From assembly GCF_017348835.2 (NCBI RefSeq), contig NZ_CP071375.1: 64,000 nucleotides of DNA; one strand, given 5' to 3'. This stretch comes from Escherichia coli (GTDB lineage Bacteria > Pseudomonadota > Gammaproteobacteria > Enterobacterales > Enterobacteriaceae). Positions 40,266 through 64,000 of the stretch are shown piece after piece (the first letter of the stretch is position 1; each line of letters opens with the position of its first letter). The position numbers and the translations under genes were made by a program. The notes below the pieces were generated by a model, which was not told where the DNA came from, did not search any database, and saw only the letters and a program-made list of their open reading frames with translations.

Positions 40266-40390
40266 GCCCTCGTCGCATCAGGTAACCTTGCCGGTACCTG
40301 ATGCGTTCCGGATTCTGTGGGTCGGATAAGGCGTTTACGCCGCATCCGACAGTCGAGCATCAATGCCTGATGCGATGCTGCGCATCTTAT
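40266..40390. repeat. REP / BIME cluster
   Basis: Several palindromic units, e.g. GTCGGATAAGGCGTTTACGCCGCATCCGAC and GCATCAGGTAACCTTGCCGGTACCTGATGC. Confidence 0.8.
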
Positions 40391-40670
40391 GAGGACGACC
40401 AAACGCCCTCCATATACGCGTCACCCTATATCACCCTTCCGGACTTGCTCAAATAATAAACAATAAACTCTGTTTTTTGATCTCACCCGGTAAAGTCGCC
40501 TATCTTTTCAGCAACAAAACTTGATTAACATCAATTTTGGTATGACCAATGCACCATTCATGTTATTCTCAATAGCGAAGAACATTTTCATTGCTGTAAC
40601 CTGTTGTTAATTAAGAGCTATGTTAATAACCATTAATTAACAATTGGTTAATAAATTTAAGGGGGTCACG
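40391..40670 (+). promoter_or_regulatory. ndh promoter region
   Basis: AT-rich region with TTAATTAA-containing repeats immediately upstream of ndh; FNR/Fis control is established knowledge, sites not mapped. Confidence 0.45.
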
Positions 40671-56937: not shown

Positions 56938-56969
56938 TCGAGTTCCACCTTTTTATTCATAAGGCGGGA
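56934..56969 (-). pseudogene. potB: 3'-terminal remnant of potB, cut off by the prophage junction
   Basis: Minus-strand frame ending in TGA that overlaps the potC ATG (ATGA) encodes ...SRLMNKKVELE; this matches my recollection of the PotB C-terminus, and the frame is open for only 37 codons (to 57047) with no membrane-permease body upstream. Confidence 0.45.
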
Positions 56970-57245
56970 CACTTTCAGGTTTTTGAATTTATTCAATTTT
57001 TTCCTTTCTCCAAAATCTCTCCAAAACTTTTCCCCAAAACAGGACCACGCATTTTACAGCATTTTTATACATGGGTGAGCTTACTAGGACAGAAAAGTAT
57101 TCCAGTTTGTTTACCCATATCGCTTTCCGAATGAGATTTTTGATGTGATTTCTTCGTGTTGAAAAACCACATAATGTGGTATTAGAATTAGCTATCAAGA
57201 TTCACTTTGAATCCGTTTTGAATCCCATTGAACTCAGGAGTGACT

Positions 57246-57449
57246 ATGAAGCGTAAAAGTGTGGCTTTGTTACAAGCCATTGGCTCGGTTATAGCCCTGA
57301 GCCCGACGGTCGTTTCAGCAAATGGCATGCCAGCGAATCCAGTTTCCGCTTTGCGTCAGGATGCTGCGGCTATCAGAGGCGATTTCCAAAAAGCAATGGT
57401 ATCCGTTAACGTTGAAAAGCTGAACAATGCCAGATCAAAAAGAAAGTGA
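57246..57449 (+). CDS. small secreted protein, unknown function (prophage cargo)
   Basis: 67 aa, MKRKSVALLQAIGSVIALSPTVVSA is a signal peptide with a likely cleavage site after VSA; AGGAG Shine-Dalgarno 5 nt upstream; the listed ORF starts at an in-frame TTG at 57228. Confidence 0.55.
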   Translation: MKRKSVALLQAIGSVIALSPTVVSANGMPANPVSALRQDAAAIRGDFQKAMVSVNVEKLNNARSKRK

Positions 57450-57534
57450 GAACACCAAACTCACTTGTGAATAACAAAAGGATAATGAACTGGTTTCTCG
57501 AGTAATCGAAAATCCAGAGGTCTTAAACAGGGTT

Positions 57535-57894
57535 TTGGATAGTCCGCAGGTGCGGGCTATTGTTTGCCAGCATTTTCAGGGGCCTGTTCCGCCACCTTCA
57601 ATGCTTAAAAAGTATGATCAACTGGTGCCTGGGCTTGCAAATCGACTTGTTGAGTTGACCGAAAAAGAGCAGGCTCATCGCCATAAAACAGTGGCTGATA
57701 GCATTGATATTGCCAGAGATGGTCAAACAAAGGCTTTTTGGTTGGCAATATTGATCATCTTAGCTGCCACTGTCTTTGGCGTCATGGGGGAGACAGTTCT
57801 TGCCGGAACTCTCGTTTCAATAGATCTTGTTGCATTGGTTACGGCATTTATTGTTGGAAAACATTATTCTAAGCAGGAACCTGATCAAGATTAG
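57535..57894 (+). CDS. DUF2335-like two-transmembrane-helix membrane protein (prophage cargo)
   Basis: N-terminal PVPPPSMLKKYDQLVPGLANRLVELTEKEQAHRH followed by two hydrophobic helices; start uncertain (TTG 57535 or ATG 57601), no strong Shine-Dalgarno. Confidence 0.5.
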   Translation: MDSPQVRAIVCQHFQGPVPPPSMLKKYDQLVPGLANRLVELTEKEQAHRHKTVADSIDIARDGQTKAFWLAILIILAATVFGVMGETVLAGTLVSIDLVALVTAFIVGKHYSKQEPDQD

Positions 57895-57902
57895 TCTCCG
57901 AA

Positions 57903-57925
57903 CCCCGGTTGATGCCGGGGTTTTT
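57903..57925 (+). terminator. rho-independent terminator after the cargo cassette
   Basis: CCCCGG-TTGATG-CCGGGG followed by TTTTT, 9 nt after the stop codon. Confidence 0.8.
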
Positions 57926-57970
57926 ACACTAGCAAAGCAATATCAACATTTTTCAGCTGCATTTATTTCG

Positions 57971-59089: not shown

Positions 59090-59336
59090 GAGTTAAAATC
59101 TCCTTCAGTGCATCATCATCGCCAGTATGAATTTCCGGCGCAATTCCTGTTTCACCAGGTCCAACAAATACTGCTCGGCGATCTATCAGCCAACGCCCAC
59201 GAATTTTTTGTGGTCTTGGAACGATGTATCCTAGTTTTCCGTATTTCACCAGGGTAGTGTTTGTTATTGGGAGACTGAACCGTTTTGGCTTCCACTCATC
59301 GAGCGTTATCAGGTACTGTTCGCTCATGGCTATCAC
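59058..59336 (-). CDS. xis: excisionase (Xis)
   Basis: 92 aa; YLITLDEW...GRWLIDRRAV resembles lambda Xis (MYLTLQEW...); 32-nt overlap with the int start as in lambda; start could be Met1 or Met4. Confidence 0.75.
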   Translation of the reverse strand: MIAMSEQYLITLDEWKPKRFSLPITNTTLVKYGKLGYIVPRPQKIRGRWLIDRRAVFVGPGETGIAPEIHTGDDDALKEILTHVTEATKKQH

Positions 59337-59388
59337 TCCGGAACGCGCCAGTTGCAGAATACCAACGACAACTGGCGACGGTTGAACA

Positions 59389-61860
59389 TTAAAAATCAGC
59401 CTGACTCGGGATCAGTTTTTGCCAGATAACTGAAACGTATTTTGCCTGATAACGGGCGTCATCAAGTGCATTATGGCGCTCACCTTCGAATGGAATAGCC
59501 GTTCTGGCATCGAAGTCTATGGCTTTCCCCAGCTCAACGATTGTGCGTACATCGCGATCGTTGTAGTAACGCCACGGGCAGGGGATCCCCTGCCGTTCGT
59601 ATGAACGGCGCAAAATCGTGTTATCGAAGTTGGCTCCATTTCCCCAGACCTGAACAAAAAATTCACCGGAGTTTTCGTCGATAAATTCCCGCAATTGTAA
59701 CAGTGCATCATCTAACGGGATTTCATCGGTCATAATGGCAGATTGCGCTTCGCGTGATTGCTTAAGCCACCATTTAATGGTGTCCCGATCAATGACTCCG
59801 CCAGCAGTTTCCAGATCGATAGTCTTACTAAATTCCGGTCCCATATCTCCGGTTTGCGGATCGAAAAATATTGCACCTATTGAGATGATCGGGGCATCAG
59901 GATTTTTTCCCATGGTTTCAAGGTCGATCATTAGATGGTCACACGTCCTGCTGGTGGATGTGATTTCTTGATGACCGTTCACCTTAATTGAGTGATCTGC
60001 CGTCTCGCCAGTTTCACTATCGCTGGCATGATGCTGATTGCCGCCAGTGTTCTCCTTGTGTGGATGTTCAGCGCCTTCCATTTTCTCCGGATCATCTTCC
60101 TGAACTTCAACCTGATACTCTTCATCGAATGTTTCCTGGTATGTTGCGTCGCCCATCACCGCGCCACAATCAGGGCAGTTGCCGCCGCCGGTCTGACCGC
60201 AGGCGGTGCAGGCTTTTTCCACTTCCTGTTGCGCCACTGGTTCAGGCTGTTTCGTTTCTGGCTCGTTTTGTAACGCATTTGGGCTGTTTTGTTCCGCTTT
60301 TTGGTAGTTCCGTTCCGATTCATGCTGGTTCTGGTTTACAGAATCGCGGGTCTGGATCCCCTTAACCCATTTCGGATCATTCGGGTCGCTAATCCCTGCA
60401 ACAAATTCTCCGCGAGAGGCAGCAAGCAACTTATCGGCGTCAGGCTGGCTGATATTGGCTGCCTGCATAATTTTGTTTACTTCGTCAGCGGTAACTTTTA
60501 CCGGCTCTGGTTGTGCGGTCGTGTCAGATGCACCAGTATTTTGTTGTGAACCTGAGTATGTACTGTTTTTGCGGGCGAAATATTCTTCTTTCGTGATTTC
60601 AGTAGCCCCGGCAGCCAGTGCCTTATCCAGACCAGAAAGTTTGTTTGCGCGACCGTATTTTTCGCCATCCTTGTCGGTGAAGAGGAAGTAGAACGGCCCC
60701 TCACGCTCTACAGATGGTTCGACTTCCACTTTGCATTCGGTTTTTTCGTTGTCCGGAATTGCCGTTTCCACTGCATCAGTTTCTGGTACTGGCGACGAGA
60801 GAGTATCAGTTGCGCTCTGATTTGTTCCTTCATCTTCAAACACGCCCTTTGTAGTCAGGTATTCAGTAATGTATTTGTTCAGTGCCACAGGGTCTTTGTG
60901 AATGTCGATCGGACGTTCACGGACAAGGCCAAAAATAGTCTGGCGGTCGTAGCGAAGGGCATCAGGCTGTTTGCGCATTGATGCCGAGATACGCTTCCAG
61001 TCTTCGCGGTCGTTGTCGATAACTTCATTTTTTGCCCAGCGATGGATGCTGCCGTCAATGTTTCCGGCATCCACATCACCAGGCCAGAGAGCGTAGGCCA
61101 GTTCGTCATCCAGTGTTTTCCATGTCTGCTTGTATTCGCGATGAATGGCAGCAATGACCGGGCTGATTTTTCCTGTTGAATTTTCAGTGTGCTGTTGATT
61201 GGTTCTGGCGCGGGCGAGATCAACAACAGACGTGTATTTTCCGGTTTCCTTGCGTTCACCTTCGCGACGTTTTTTCCAGATGCGCATCTCTGCCTGAATT
61301 TCGGGCCATTTGGCACCAGGCTTACATTTATGCTTAACCCACCCGATGGCATGCAGCTTAAGCTCCGGATACATGGCGTTAACTTCTGGCATTTTCATCA
61401 ACGCTTCAACGATATGTCCGTCGAATGTTGCCATGTCTTCCTGCAACAATTCCTGTGCGCTAATAACCATATCAACGGTGATGTTTTCACATGTGTCGAA
61501 CTTAACCATGACAGCGTTCTGTACTTCAGGGGCCAGCTTGTCAAAAGTGACGTTCATCGGATCTGATTCAGTCTCAACCGGAACAAAGGAAGCAGACTCC
61601 TCATCCCAGCGGTTTTCCTGCATATATTCAGCATCCCATGAATCGAGGGCAGGGCGGGGTATGCCAGGTTTATCCTCGCAGATAATAAATTTATAAGCGC
61701 AGTCCTGAGCAGCCGGATAATGTTCCAGGAATTGCCAGTGAAATTTTGCTCGAGCACGGCGTTCGTCGCCAGCTTCAATAGCTGTGGCTACAGCCACAGC
61801 GCCTTCTTCCCTTGTTGCCAGTTCGTCAGGAATGGCGGCGCAAATAAAGACTTTACTCAT
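59389..61860 (-). CDS. phage exonuclease of the family often annotated exodeoxyribonuclease VIII, with C-terminal DnaQ-like DEDDh 3'-5' exonuclease domain
   Basis: 823 aa; C-terminus carries Exo I (MIDLETMG), Exo II (VWGNGANFDNTIL) and Exo III (HNALDDARYQAKY) motifs; central acidic/Gln-Pro-rich segment with Zn-ribbon-like CTACGQTGGGNCPDCG; sits in the exo/recE slot of a lambdoid early-left operon. Confidence 0.75.
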   Translation of the reverse strand: MSKVFICAAIPDELATREEGAVAVATAIEAGDERRARAKFHWQFLEHYPAAQDCAYKFIICEDKPGIPRPALDSWDAEYMQENRWDEESASFVPVETESDPMNVTFDKLAPEVQNAVMVKFDTCENITVDMVISAQELLQEDMATFDGHIVEALMKMPEVNAMYPELKLHAIGWVKHKCKPGAKWPEIQAEMRIWKKRREGERKETGKYTSVVDLARARTNQQHTENSTGKISPVIAAIHREYKQTWKTLDDELAYALWPGDVDAGNIDGSIHRWAKNEVIDNDREDWKRISASMRKQPDALRYDRQTIFGLVRERPIDIHKDPVALNKYITEYLTTKGVFEDEGTNQSATDTLSSPVPETDAVETAIPDNEKTECKVEVEPSVEREGPFYFLFTDKDGEKYGRANKLSGLDKALAAGATEITKEEYFARKNSTYSGSQQNTGASDTTAQPEPVKVTADEVNKIMQAANISQPDADKLLAASRGEFVAGISDPNDPKWVKGIQTRDSVNQNQHESERNYQKAEQNSPNALQNEPETKQPEPVAQQEVEKACTACGQTGGGNCPDCGAVMGDATYQETFDEEYQVEVQEDDPEKMEGAEHPHKENTGGNQHHASDSETGETADHSIKVNGHQEITSTSRTCDHLMIDLETMGKNPDAPIISIGAIFFDPQTGDMGPEFSKTIDLETAGGVIDRDTIKWWLKQSREAQSAIMTDEIPLDDALLQLREFIDENSGEFFVQVWGNGANFDNTILRRSYERQGIPCPWRYYNDRDVRTIVELGKAIDFDARTAIPFEGERHNALDDARYQAKYVSVIWQKLIPSQADF

Positions 61861-61953
61861 TTTGTTTTAACCTCATGACAGATTTAAGGATGAACAAATC
61901 CCTGCCATTGCTGGCATATAAGAATGAAACCGGATATTTATTACGGAACTGTT

Positions 61954-62145
61954 TTAAAGACCTGCCGGGATTTCGATATTATCCTGGTGAATAACTTTAT
62001 CGACCGGGTAACAGTTACCGGGAATTTTCTGTTCGGTTGCTGCAGTCATACACTCCTGCATTGTCCTGTGAACACTGACTGCAATATCAACTGGCTCTCC
62101 GGAAACAAGAAAAACTGTCAGAACAAGTGCAAATGCTGTATTCAT
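61954..62145 (-). CDS. YdfD-like small membrane protein
   Basis: 63 aa from Met19 of the listed ORF (MNTAFALVLTVFLVSGEPVD...); its ATG overlaps the dicB-like stop as ATGA; hydrophobic N-terminus; resembles my recollection of Qin prophage YdfD. Confidence 0.55.
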   Translation of the reverse strand: MNTAFALVLTVFLVSGEPVDIAVSVHRTMQECMTAATEQKIPGNCYPVDKVIHQDNIEIPAGL

Positions 62146-62330
62146 TGCCAGCATCCTTTTTGTATCGGACGTAAACGGGCCAACATTGAAAGAATGCATA
62201 TTTTATTTAATAGCTCCCGTTCGTGTTTTCTCTTGTTAATGGCATCTTCAGTAAATACAGGGTTACTGATAGTGACACCAATTTCAAAACAACCTTCAGA
62301 CGTATTAACGTTTGGTAATAACGTTTTCAT
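62142..62330 (-). CDS. dicB: DicB-like cell-division inhibitor
   Basis: 62 aa from the internal Met of the listed ORF (MKTLLPNVNTSEGCFEIGVTISNPVFTEDAINKRKHERELLNKICILSMLARLRPIQKGCWQ); GAGGG Shine-Dalgarno 8 nt upstream; closely matches remembered DicB; lies directly downstream of the DicF-type sRNA. Confidence 0.65.
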   Translation of the reverse strand: MKTLLPNVNTSEGCFEIGVTISNPVFTEDAINKRKHERELLNKICILSMLARLRPIQKGCWQ

Positions 62331-62499
62331 TATCGCGCCCTCAACAATGAGTTTTGTGATGCGGTGCCTGGTGCCTCCAGGTGACGTTAACCAGTTAACA
62401 ACTAACGCCGGATACAGAGAATCCAACCATAACACTGTTTTTGGTTTTAACTGTTCCGCGTGCGCTTAGCCGCATTCACCGCATCACAAAATTCACTTT

Positions 62500-62557
62500 A
62501 AAAAGGGCGGCAGAGCAGTCACGGAGTAAAACTGATACCGCCAAACGTCACCAGAAA
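62500..62557 (-). ncRNA. dicF: DicF-type small RNA with 3' terminator
   Basis: Minus strand reads TTTCTGGTGACGTTTGGCGGTATCAGTTTTACTCCGTGACTGCTCTGCCGCCC followed by TTTTT; I recognise this 53-nt sequence as DicF; position immediately upstream of the dicB-like gene fits. Confidence 0.75.
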
Positions 62558-62819
62558 ATTGATAACAGAGGGCGTTGCAGCGGGGTTGTCACTTAAGCGT
62601 ATGGTCAACCTGACAACCCGGTGTCCTCAACGGGGGAAGGAATAACCCCGCCATACTTACCGCCGCGCCATTTCGCGGATTGCCACAACCAGAAGCGCAC
62701 GGTCGAAGAAATTTAACGACAAGACTTATATGCAAAGGGATCTCGCCGTGCGCTTTCGTGTTATGCCCTGACTTTTCAGGGTAAATTAACCTGTGGAAAC
62801 CTGTTTTTACTGGCGCTAA

Positions 62820-63059
62820 TCAGTTAGCGTTTCTGGCTAACCAGCGATGCGCGGCAGCTTCGGTTTTAAACGTTTTACTTTTGGTATACGTCATCGCGGT
62901 AAACGTGCCGTCCTGATTGGGAAACACGCCACATACCAGAGATTCGTTGTTGCCAAGCTCGATAGTATCCATGCTGACCTCATTTCCCCTTAACGCTGGG
63001 GTAGCGGAACTAAAAACCTGCTGCGCTGTTATACAAAGTGTTCCCGCCGTCATGTTCAT
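62820..63059 (-). CDS. DUF1391 protein (YdfA / YdaF-like)
   Basis: C-terminal 50 aa (MDTIELGNNESLVCGVFPNQDGTFTAMTYTKSKTFKTEAAAHRWLARNAN) resemble the prophage YdfA/YdaF family; an internal ATG at 62972 has a good Shine-Dalgarno (GAGG, 6 nt), so the true product may be the 50-aa form. Confidence 0.55.
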   Translation of the reverse strand: MNMTAGTLCITAQQVFSSATPALRGNEVSMDTIELGNNESLVCGVFPNQDGTFTAMTYTKSKTFKTEAAAHRWLARNAN

Positions 63060-63153
63060 ACGCCTCGGGCTGGCTACTTAATCCCTGACCACAGCCGGGT
63101 AACTCTAGGTATTGCCCTGTATTGTGTGGGACGGGATGGGTTGGTATGGGAAA

Positions 63154-63195
63154 ACTATAGGAAATGCCTAATTGCTTGTCAATAGGCCATGCCTA
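63154..63195 (-). promoter_or_regulatory. PL-like early-left promoter with repressor operators
   Basis: Minus strand TTGACA (63182-63177) -17 nt- TATAGT (63159-63154); flanked by TAGGA-AAT-GCCTA (63158-63170) and TAGGC-CAT-GCCTA (63183-63195), the same TAGGC-N3-GCCTA motif found at the PR-like promoter. Confidence 0.6.
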
Positions 63196-63290
63196 ATGAT
63201 TTGGGTGCGACCTAATAGGTGATGGTTTGTGGGAGAGATAGTAGGAGTTAACTAACGGGAACTAGGAATTTCCCGTCGGACCATATAAGT

Positions 63291-63767
63291 TTAAGTTCCT
63301 GTCTTGGTGATGTTCTGGCTTTTCCGTTTTGATTCTTGATTTTTCAGATAGTTAGCTACCTTCATTTCCATTGCGGCAATGTAGGCGCGAACGTCATGAT
63401 CAACCCAACTAGGCTCCGTAGCATTTCCAGATAAGAGGAAAGCCACAATTGCTCTTTTTTCATCAGAGGCGGCTTGATAAAGGCTGTTTATGTCTAAAAG
63501 TTCACTTTTTGTATCTGAAGTGGATGGGGTTGGTATGGGGTATTCGTTAAGCCCCCAATGCTCTGGACCAACCACATCAGAAAAGAAACGCCATAGTTCT
63601 GGAAGTTTGTCTTTACTTATCGAACCTTTCTTAATCCAGTCATGGATTGATGGTGGTTGGACTTTGAAATGACGTGCGATTTCCGCCTTTGATTTGACGG
63701 CTCCTGATGCAATTTTTTTGTTAATGGCCTGCTCTATCGCTCGGCCTAAGTCTTTACCACTAAGCAT
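63291..63767 (-). CDS. prophage repressor (CI-equivalent; RacR-like)
   Basis: 158 aa; HTH-like segment SKAEIARHFKVQPPSIHDWIKKG; located between PL-like and PR-like promoter/operator regions and divergent from the Cro-like gene; AGGAG Shine-Dalgarno. Confidence 0.65.
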   Translation of the reverse strand: MLSGKDLGRAIEQAINKKIASGAVKSKAEIARHFKVQPPSIHDWIKKGSISKDKLPELWRFFSDVVGPEHWGLNEYPIPTPSTSDTKSELLDINSLYQAASDEKRAIVAFLLSGNATEPSWVDHDVRAYIAAMEMKVANYLKNQESKRKSQNITKTGT

Positions 63768-63794
63768 TGCTTAATAGTCTCCTATGCGCATCGC

Positions 63795-63864
63795 GTTAGG
63801 CAATCCCTACTCTCGAAGCGTTAGGCATAGCCTATTGACAATCGCATTAGGCTAAGCCTAATAT
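63795..63864 (+). promoter_or_regulatory. PR-like promoter with three operator sites
   Basis: TTGACA (63835-63840), 18-nt spacer, TAATAT (63859-63864); operators TAGGC-AAT-CCCTA (63797-63809, imperfect), TAGGC-ATA-GCCTA (63822-63834) and the 17-bp perfect palindrome ATTAGGCT-A-AGCCTAAT (63846-63862) overlapping spacer and -10. Confidence 0.6.
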
Positions 63865-63891
63865 TATTGTGTGTTTTTTGGAGTTCATTCG

Positions 63892-64000
63892 ATGAAAAAA
63901 GATAACTATTCATTCAAACGAGCTTGTGCTGTTGTCGGTGGGCAATCAGCAATGGCTAGGCTTTTAGGTGTATCTCCTCCAAGCGTAAATCAATGGATCA
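63892..64000 (+). CDS. Cro-like / YdaS-like HTH protein (5' part only; truncated by window end)
   Basis: MKKDNYSFKRACAVVGGQSAMARLLGVSPPSVNQWI, HTH motif, GGAG Shine-Dalgarno about 9 nt upstream, divergent from the repressor. Confidence 0.6.
   Translation, partial: MKKDNYSFKRACAVVGGQSAMARLLGVSPPSVNQWI

What the first reader, a model, noticed from the sequence alone, without database searches (positions are those of the whole stretch)
61954..62557. Complete DicF sRNA - dicB - ydfD-like cell-division and lysis module inside the early-left operon
The 53-nt sequence I recognise as DicF, with its U-tract, is followed by a DicB-like 62-aa ORF and a translationally coupled (ATGA) 63-aa membrane ORF. 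This is the Qin-type division-inhibition module, but here it sits in a prophage whose immunity region looks Rac-like (different repressor, TAGGC-N3-GCCTA operators), so the prophage is a mosaic. If derepressed, the module is expected to cause filamentation.
Basis: partly seen in the sequence, partly recalled or inferred. Interest (0 to 1): 0.4.

Follow-up and report, generated by a model that had tools for sequence, protein, structure and literature searches.

The report
DicF–dicB–ydfD module in a lambdoid prophage
This stretch holds a well-known prophage cassette (the small RNA DicF, the division inhibitor DicB and the lysis protein YdfD), here placed under a Rac-type repressor instead of the K-12 Qin one, which is an ordinary and already annotated arrangement in E. 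coli.

Summary
All features lie on the minus strand.

- **DicF:** 62557..62505, followed by a U-tract at 62504..62500. It scores 76.7 bits against Rfam RF00039 (threshold 48) and is 100% identical to K-12 DicF.
- **dicB:** 62330..62142, 62 aa, 56/62 identical to K-12. It passes the Pfam and NCBIfam DicB cut-offs.
- **ydfD:** 62145..61954, 63 aa, 61/63 identical to K-12. Its start overlaps the dicB stop as ATGA.

The interpretation also holds.

- From 61094 to 63011 the operon body is Qin-like (96.6% identity over most of it), without ydfB-ydfC.
- From about 62985 onward the promoter, operators and repressor are Rac-like. RacR is 92% identical to K-12 RacR.
- TAGGC-N3-GCCTA palindromes flank both a PL-like and a PR-like promoter, exactly as in K-12 Rac. 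The motif is the published RacR operator consensus.
- The prophage sits at the potB/potC junction.

None of this is new.

- The cassette is found in 3793 of 5426 complete E. coli genomes and in viable phages.
- The dicF–racR joint occurs in 252 genomes.
- RefSeq already names these genes in a 100% identical copy of the module.

Function (ftsZ repression, MinC recruitment, IspG-linked lysis) is inferred from K-12 work and was not tested here. Interest is low.

The parts
62505..62557 (-). DicF small RNA (53 nt); the 3' hairpin doubles as a Rho-independent terminator
   Evidence: Rfam RF00039 at 76.7 bits against a threshold of 48. It is 100% identical to K-12 DicF. Hairpin fold shown.
62500..62504 (-). 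U-tract after the DicF hairpin
   Evidence: Read directly. Identical in K-12 Qin, and also conserved in K-12 Rac upstream of kilR.
62558..62705 (-). Conserved upstream part of the DicF precursor. It corresponds to the ~190-nt RNase III product described in K-12, whose 5' end would fall near 62690.
   Evidence: Nearly identical to K-12 from about 62705 down through DicF. It is predicted to pair with the 3' half of DicF in a long duplex (-79.1 kcal/mol, z = -2.5). The 190-nt and 53-nt species and their processing are taken from PMC10448788. Their positions here are inferred by homology.
62331..62499 (-). Leader between the DicF terminator and dicB
   Evidence: 97-100% identical to Qin and about 80% identical to the kilR leader of K-12 Rac.
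62142..62330 (-). dicB, a 62-aa division inhibitor
   Evidence: Pfam PF05358 at 126.9 bits. NCBIfam NF049927 at 131.8 bits, cut-off 100. 56/62 identical to K-12. A GAGGG motif lies 8 nt before the ATG. RefSeq annotates dicB in an identical copy.
61954..62145 (-). ydfD, a 63-aa lysis protein (DUF1482); its start overlaps the dicB stop (ATGA)
   Evidence: Pfam PF07358 at 92 bits. 61/63 identical to K-12 YdfD. Overlap read. RefSeq calls it 'lysis protein YdfD'.
62820..62972 (-). ydfA-like DUF1391 gene, first gene of the leftward operon (50 aa; the 79-aa ORF is an upstream extension)
   Evidence: Pfam PF07151 at 97.5 bits. 89.6% DNA identity to K-12 ydfA. A GAGG motif lies 6 nt before the ATG at 62972. 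RefSeq annotates the 153-nt version.
63154..63182 (-). PL-like promoter of the leftward operon (TTGACA, 17-nt spacer, TATAGT)
   Evidence: 11 of 12 consensus positions. A consensus match only; no transcription data.
63158..63195 (.). Two RacR-operator-like palindromes (TAGGAAATGCCTA and TAGGCCATGCCTA) bracketing the -35 box of the PL-like promoter
   Evidence: K-12 Rac has the same pair in the same position downstream of racR. The consensus is from PMC9638921.
63291..63767 (-). racR-type repressor gene (158 aa)
   Evidence: 92% identical to K-12 RacR. NCBIfam RacR equivalog at 246.8 bits, cut-off 200.
63761..63864 (.). racR–ydaS intergenic control region. It holds palindromes at 63797-63809, 63822-63834 and 63848-63860, plus TAAGCATTGCTTA over the racR ATG, and a PR-like promoter (TTGACA at 63835, 18-nt spacer, TAATAT).
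   Evidence: Same layout in K-12 Rac. RacR footprint and operator consensus are in PMC9638921.
59389..61860 (-). Next gene of the leftward operon: an 823-aa exonuclease with a C-terminal Rv2179c-like 3'-5' exonuclease domain. K-12 keeps only a truncated N-terminal remnant next to IS2.
   Evidence: Pfam PF16473 at 226.8 bits. The K-12 copy is annotated as incomplete. Qin homology starts at 61094.

Best explanation
This is an intact copy of the dicBF-type early-left cassette of lambdoid prophages, carried by a prophage integrated at the potB/potC junction.

**Proposed mechanism**
1. A leftward PL-like promoter (63182..63154) is flanked by two RacR-operator palindromes. In the lysogen it is probably kept off by the RacR-type repressor encoded just upstream.
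2. When repression is lifted, one transcript runs through ydfA-like, DicF, dicB and ydfD, and possibly on to the exonuclease, xis and int genes.
3. [quoted passage not shown]
4. With Hfq, DicF pairs with the ftsZ ribosome-binding site and with other mRNAs (xylR, pykA, manX) and blocks their translation.
5. Read-through past the DicF terminator gives DicB. DicB binds MinC and takes it to ZipA at the septum, where it dismantles the FtsZ ring. DicB also blocks ManYZ-dependent phage DNA entry.
6. YdfD is translationally coupled to dicB. It inhibits IspG and lyses dividing cells unless division is already blocked.

**Shown here:** the identities of all parts, their order and strand, the 4-nt overlap, the promoter and operator motifs, and the mosaic Qin/Rac origin.

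**Inferred from K-12 literature:** processing, targets, filamentation and lysis, and repression by RacR at the left promoter.
For: - **Identity of the parts:**
- **Existing annotation:** RefSeq names ydfD, dicB, DUF1391, racR and a YdaT-family gene in a 100% identical copy of the module (99.85% identity over the 4.7 kb compared).
- **Promoter and operators:**. The operator consensus is in PMC9638921.
- **Mosaic map:**
- **Precursor:** conserved and predicted to form a long duplex with DicF. This fits the 190-nt RNase III and 53-nt RNase E products reported in K-12 (PMC10448788).
- **DicF-ftsZ pairing:** DicF pairs in silico with ftsZ -29..+26, including the GGAG of the ribosome-binding site, at -38.5 kcal/mol. 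This is only weakly better than shuffles, 33 of 500 of which were as good. The genetic proof is in PMC5069750.
- **DicB, MinC, ZipA and ManYZ:** PMC6832061.
- **YdfD, IspG and lysis offset by DicB:** PMC8835842.
- **Derepression of the Qin operon causes DicF- and DicB-dependent filamentation:** PMC10448788.
- **Spread of the cassette:** present in 3793 of 5426 complete E. coli genomes and in isolated phages such as Tritos and mEp460_ev081. PMC5069750 reports it in different prophages.
Against: - No expression or phenotype data exist for this locus.
- DicB differs from K-12 at six positions (Q36H, V47L, L55P, M56I, P57Q, A61W), four of them in the last eight residues. The effect on MinC binding is unknown.
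- ydfB and ydfC are absent, so the upstream part of the transcript differs from the one studied in K-12.
- RacR binding to the two palindromes at the left promoter has not been shown. The RacR papers consulted deal only with the racR-ydaS intergenic region.
- The in-silico DicF-ftsZ duplex is not strongly better than chance.
Confidence: 0.93

Rival explanations
1. The DicF element acts here mainly in cis, as a leaky terminator and processing site that limits how much dicB-ydfD message is made. Its trans-acting small-RNA role would be secondary.
For: K-12 Rac carries a diverged DicF-like element in the same place upstream of kilR (39.1 bits, below the threshold of 48). That element keeps the GGCGG...CCGCCC stem base, the U-tract and the downstream leader, but not the loop that pairs with ftsZ. 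The conserved core is therefore the terminator and leader. In K-12 the main transcripts end at DicF or after ydfD.
Against: [quoted passage not shown] The two roles are not exclusive.
Confidence: 0.3
2. The cassette's selected role in the lysogen is superinfection exclusion and metabolic tuning, not division block or lysis. In this view, low-level DicB blocks ManYZ-dependent phage DNA entry and DicF represses manX.
For: DicB gives about 100-fold resistance to lambda and other ManYZ-dependent phages (PMC6832061). The cassette is kept in about 70% of complete E. coli genomes, often in several copies, even though it is toxic when overexpressed.
Against: Nothing in the sequence separates this role from the division and lysis role. 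The operon appears to be repressor-controlled like other early-left genes, which suits a function after induction.
Confidence: 0.3
3. The cassette is a silent relic: intact in sequence but never expressed, because the prophage is defective or the left promoter is dead.
For: A 99.85%-identical copy of this region in strain 2013C-4974 lies in a prophage with frameshifted integrase, capsid and portal genes. The O157:H7 prophage at the same site has lost the whole cassette, so it is dispensable.
Against: All ORFs are intact with plausible ribosome-binding sites. The promoter matches 11 of 12 consensus positions. DicF is unchanged. The integrase ORF in this window is full length at 372 aa. The equally 'cryptic' K-12 copy is expressed in stationary phase.
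Confidence: 0.08

Closest known systems
dicBF operon of the Qin cryptic prophage, E. coli K-12 (ydfABC-dicF-dicB-ydfDE)
   Same: Same gene order and strand logic. DicF is 100% identical, DicB 90% and YdfD 97%. The dicB/ydfD ATGA overlap is the same, and the DicF precursor and dicB leader are conserved.
   Different: ydfB and ydfC are missing: about 500 bp of Qin is replaced by about 44 bp. The repressor is RacR-type rather than DicA, and Qin has no TAGGC-N3-GCCTA sites. The downstream exonuclease is full length here but truncated by IS2 in K-12. The chromosomal site differs: potB/potC here, next to rspB in K-12.
Immunity region of the Rac prophage, E. coli K-12 (racR / ydaS-ydaT)
   Same: RacR is 92% identical. 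The operator palindromes have the same 2+3 layout around the left and right promoters. A ydaS-like gene starts at 63893, and a YdaT-family gene follows it in the identical copy.
   Different: Rac's early-left operon carries ydaG-ydaF, sieB, kilR, ydaE, racC and recET. Here the division inhibitor is DicF/DicB/YdfD, and there is no sieB and no kilR. DNA identity to Rac is only 86.5%.
dicBF copies in other lambdoid prophages and phages (CP-933O/M/P of O157:H7; phages Tritos, mEp460_ev081)
   Same: The same cassette moves between prophages with different immunity regions. This is reported in PMC5069750. Viable phages carry it at 94-96% identity, with DicF annotated in Tritos.
   Different: This copy is paired with RacR-type immunity and sits at potB/potC. 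That pairing is itself seen in 252 complete genomes, so it is not unique.

Membership tests
DicF RNA (Rfam RF00039) | Score at or above the family's gathering threshold over the full model | tested here: met
   76.7 bits against 48, model positions 1-52 of 52. K-12 DicF gives the same score.
DicF RNA (Rfam RF00039) | 3' stem-loop followed by a U-tract (intrinsic terminator) | tested here: met
   Hairpin of -15.9 kcal/mol followed by UUUUU. Note that the hairpin energy alone is not exceptional (z = -1.4).
DicF RNA (Rfam RF00039) | Located inside a prophage early-left operon, directly upstream of dicB | tested here: met
   Gene order ydfA-like, DicF, dicB, ydfD on the minus strand.
DicF RNA (Rfam RF00039) | Hfq-dependent repression of ftsZ translation by base pairing; RNase E and RNase III processing | not testable with these tools
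   Only an in-silico duplex with the ftsZ leader (-38.5 kcal/mol; 33 of 500 shuffles as good). The sequence is identical to the RNA tested in PMC5069750 and PMC10448788.
DicB (Pfam PF05358 / NCBIfam NF049927) | Full-length match above the curated cut-offs; about 62 aa | tested here: met
   126.9 bits against 27. 131.8 bits against 100. 56/62 identical to K-12.
DicB (Pfam PF05358 / NCBIfam NF049927) | Binds MinC and blocks division through ZipA | not testable with these tools
   Literature only (PMC6832061). Six substitutions relative to K-12, four of them in the last eight residues.
YdfD / DUF1482 (Pfam PF07358) | Match above the cut-off; 63 aa; directly downstream of dicB and overlapping it | tested here: met
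   92 bits against 25. 61/63 identical. ATGA overlap. No NCBIfam model matched.
YdfD / DUF1482 (Pfam PF07358) | Causes lysis through IspG inhibition | not testable with these tools
   Literature only (PMC8835842).
RacR repressor (NCBIfam NF049929, equivalog) | Score above the equivalog cut-off | tested here: met
   246.8 bits against 200. 145/158 identical to K-12 RacR.
RacR repressor (NCBIfam NF049929, equivalog) | Cognate (T/A)TAGGC-n3-GCCTA(T/A) operators between racR and ydaS | tested here: met
   Sites at 63797, 63822 and 63848, plus TAAGCATTGCTTA over the racR ATG. Consensus from PMC9638921. Actual binding was not tested.
Qin prophage (as a whole element) | DicA/DicC immunity region and the K-12 Qin chromosomal site | tested here: not met
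   The repressor is RacR-type and there is no DicA or DicC. The site is potB/potC rather than rspB-adjacent. Only the cassette is Qin-like.
Rac prophage (as a whole element) | kilR, sieB and recET in the early-left operon | tested here: not met
   None of these is present between racR and int. Only the immunity region is Rac-like.

The most novel reading that the evidence does not exclude
RacR may directly control the DicF/DicB/YdfD cassette through a left-operator pair (63158-63195). The RacR papers I consulted do not mention such a pair, and it is also present downstream of racR in K-12 Rac. If RacR does act there, three things follow. A resident Rac prophage could cross-repress this cassette in trans. 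RacR loss or titration, for example by the reported cross-talk with restriction-modification C proteins, would release three more toxic products in the roughly 5% of E. coli that carry this joint. And kilR in Rac and dicBF here would be interchangeable payloads behind one RacR-controlled terminator-leader unit.
Probability: 0.5. Interest if true: 0.25.

Novelty: already known. Interest (0 to 1): 0.08.

Why it matters
It matters little beyond correct annotation. The cassette, its products and their mechanisms are well studied. Its presence in prophages other than Qin is published, and RefSeq already names these genes in an identical copy.

Two modest points of value remain:
- The cassette here is paired with RacR-type control, which gives a natural system for asking whether RacR governs a left promoter as well as ydaS-ydaT.
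- The DicB variant differs at its C-terminus and could be compared with K-12 DicB for MinC binding.

Tried and rejected
- **Longer ORFs as the real genes.** I considered the 97-aa GTG ORF (62435..62142) and the 81-aa ORF (62199..61954). I rejected them. The family models and K-12 proteins align to the 62-aa and 63-aa versions, these have ribosome-binding sites or a coupled start, and RefSeq uses them. The 81-aa frame is also open in K-12 (read), but nothing supports it.
- **The 79-aa form of the DUF1391 ORF.** Rejected in favour of the 50-aa form (ATG at 62972, GAGG 6 nt upstream).
- **A second small RNA or gene between DicF and the DUF1391 gene (62558-62819).** Rfam found nothing else. The short ORFs there have no support. 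The stretch is the conserved DicF precursor plus a short junction.
- **The simple terminator scan.** It did not flag the DicF hairpin, because the interior mismatches and long loop fall outside its rules. The fold and Rfam settle that point.
- **The duplex energy test for DicF-ftsZ.** It was only marginal, so I do not use it as evidence of function.
- **A DicF hit in an Aeromonas phage record.** It looked like a host jump. The end of that record is a patchwork of short E. coli fragments, so I treat it as a probable assembly artefact.

Full report
**Observation**

The finding spans 61954-62557, and everything in it reads on the minus strand.

A scan of the whole window against Rfam gives a single DicF match at 62556..62505. 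It covers the full model at 76.7 bits (gathering score 48) with E = 3.6e-15. Adding the 5' U gives the 53-nt RNA at 62557..62505, followed by UUUUU at 62504..62500. The RNA folds into the expected 3' hairpin.

Downstream lie two short ORFs:
- The 62-aa ORF at 62330..62142 matches Pfam DicB end to end at 126.9 bits. It passes the NCBIfam DicB model at 131.8 bits against a cut-off of 100.
- The 63-aa ORF at 62145..61954 matches DUF1482 at 92 bits.

The ydfD ATG and the dicB TGA share the tetranucleotide ATGA at 62145..62142. The stated start and end of the finding are exactly the ydfD stop codon and the DicF 5' end.

**Comparison with K-12**

I aligned the region to the Qin prophage of a K-12-lineage genome.
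- DicF and about 150 nt around it are identical. This stretch includes the upstream hairpin, the U-tract and the first part of the dicB leader.
- K-12 DicF gives the same Rfam score.
- DicB is 56/62 identical, with four of the six changes in the last eight residues.
- YdfD is 61/63 identical.

**Surroundings**

Upstream of DicF on the minus strand there is a ydfA-like DUF1391 gene at 62972..62820. Next comes a leftward sigma-70 promoter match, TTGACA-17-TATAGT, at 63182..63154, with 11 of 12 consensus positions. Beyond it is a 158-aa repressor gene at 63767..63291. This gene is 92% identical to K-12 RacR and passes the NCBIfam RacR equivalog model.

The pattern TAGGC-N3-GCCTA, allowing one mismatch, occurs five times in this 700-bp stretch. 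Chance predicts 1.2 matches in the whole window.
- Two sites bracket the -35 box of the left promoter.
- Three lie between racR and the rightward ydaS-like gene, around a PR-like promoter.
- A fourth, weaker site, TAAGCATTGCTTA, covers the racR start codon.

K-12 Rac has the same 2+3 layout and K-12 Qin has none. The motif is the RacR operator consensus deduced from footprints in PMC9638921.

**Mosaic map**

Pairwise BLAST shows the following:

| Window region | Best match | Identity |
|---|---|---|
| 61094-62784 | K-12 Qin | 96.6% |
| 62829-63011 | K-12 Qin ydfA | 89.6% |
| 62985-64000 | K-12 Rac | 86.5% |

- ydfB and ydfC (about 500 bp) are missing between the two Qin-like blocks.
- The joint between Qin-like and Rac-like DNA lies just upstream of the first gene of the operon.
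- The body of the operon is therefore Qin-like. The 5' end of the transcript, the promoter, the operators and the repressor are Rac-like.

Below ydfD the operon continues with an intact 823-aa exonuclease, an excisionase and an integrase. Homology to genomes with an uninterrupted potB-potC junction ends at about 56959, inside the 3' end of potB.

**How common it is**

- The 901-bp cassette is found at 80% coverage or more in 3793 of 5426 complete E. coli genomes. The median is two copies per genome that has any.
- Isolated phages such as Tritos and mEp460_ev081 carry it. Tritos has DicF annotated.
- The stretch joining DicF to racR is found in 252 genomes.
- In strain 2013C-4974 the 901-bp module is 100% identical, and the surrounding 4.7 kb is 99.85% identical. 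RefSeq there already annotates ydfD, dicB, DUF1391, racR and a YdaT-family gene.
- PMC5069750 reports the dicBF locus in several different prophages and in multiple copies in O157:H7.
- PMC8630535 notes that kil or dicB genes lie downstream of the repressor gene in lambdoid prophages.

**Mechanism**

The roles below come from K-12 experiments, not from this window.
- DicF is cut out of the operon transcript by RNase III (190 nt) and RNase E (53 nt) (PMC10448788).
- DicF represses ftsZ, xylR and pykA by base pairing, with help from Hfq (PMC5069750).
- DicB binds MinC and takes it to ZipA at the septum. It also blocks ManYZ-dependent phage entry (PMC6832061).
- YdfD binds IspG and lyses dividing cells. 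Co-expressing DicB prevents this lysis (PMC8835842).
- Derepression of the Qin operon causes filamentation that depends on DicF and DicB (PMC10448788).

Two results here are consistent with this picture. The 190-nt precursor region is conserved and is predicted to form a long duplex with the 3' half of DicF, which would suit RNase III. A duplex prediction with the ftsZ leader covers the ribosome-binding site but is only marginally better than shuffled controls.

Repression of the left promoter by RacR is my inference from the operator motifs. The RacR papers I checked deal only with the racR-ydaS intergenic region.

**Family membership**

The three elements are members of DicF, DicB and YdfD/DUF1482, and the repressor is a RacR. 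The prophage as a whole is neither Qin nor Rac:
- It has no DicA or DicC and sits at a different chromosomal site from Qin.
- It has no kilR, sieB or recET.

**Verdict**

The feature is already known and already annotated, so interest is low. The only mildly open point is whether RacR governs the left promoter. If it does, a resident Rac prophage could control this cassette in trans.

Noticed in passing
L003:2561-2616 (K-12 Rac, between sieB and kilR); compare window 62346-62557: K-12 Rac carries a diverged DicF-like element upstream of kilR (Rfam DicF 39.1 bits, below the threshold of 48). It keeps the stem base, the U-tract and an ~80%-identical downstream leader, but its loop differs. kilR and dicB therefore sit behind the same terminator-leader unit.
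   Followed up: partly
window 63154-63195; L003:3781-3818: A strong leftward promoter match is bracketed by two RacR-operator-like palindromes downstream of racR. It is present both here and in K-12 Rac. The RacR operator papers I consulted describe only the racR-ydaS intergenic sites.
   Followed up: partly
L004:3847-4998 (O157:H7 strain Z866); window 59787-62818: The O157:H7 prophage at the same potC site has the same integrase, excisionase and RacR region. In it, about 3 kb (most of the exonuclease, plus ydfD, dicB and DicF) is replaced by about 750 bp holding a 516-bp ORF on the other strand.
   Followed up: partly
window 56959-57970: Homology to uninterrupted potB-potC ends at about 56959, inside the potB 3' end. 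This leaves potC-potD cut off from potAB. About 900 bp with two small plus-strand ORFs (57228-57449; DUF2335, 57535-57894) lies between the attachment site and int. It is present in 209 genomes and absent from the O157:H7 version.
   Followed up: partly
L005 (strain 2013C-4974, beyond the window's right end): In a genome whose copy of window 59300-64000 is 99.85% identical, the prophage carries the type III effector genes nleL, espN and espK. It ends next to tRNA-Ser and hyaA rather than potB, which suggests a rearrangement between two prophages. Several of its structural genes are frameshifted.
   Followed up: no
L006:3001-3247 (Aeromonas phage AP1, MT713136.1, last ~8 kb of the record): This Aeromonas phage record contains a DicF region 97.6% identical to the E. 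coli one (Rfam 72.5 bits). It is embedded in a patchwork of short E. coli fragments (IS903B, pdeF, tRNAs). This is probably an assembly artefact, not a host jump.
   Followed up: partly
window 59389-61860 (-): The 823-aa exonuclease has a C-terminal Rv2179c-like 3'-5' exoribonuclease domain and a partial match to exodeoxyribonuclease VIII. The K-12 copy of this gene is an N-terminal remnant cut off by IS2.
   Followed up: no
window 18970-19306 (-), 21167-21335 (+), 40320-40396 (+): Other Rfam matches in the window are the rne 5' UTR element, SraB and naRNA4. They place the window in the rne to potABCD part of the E. coli chromosome.
   Followed up: no
window 61903-61916 (-): A weak hairpin lies between ydfD and the exonuclease gene. 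It might correspond to the end of the ydfABC-dicFB-ydfD transcript seen in K-12, where no longer species was detected.
   Followed up: no
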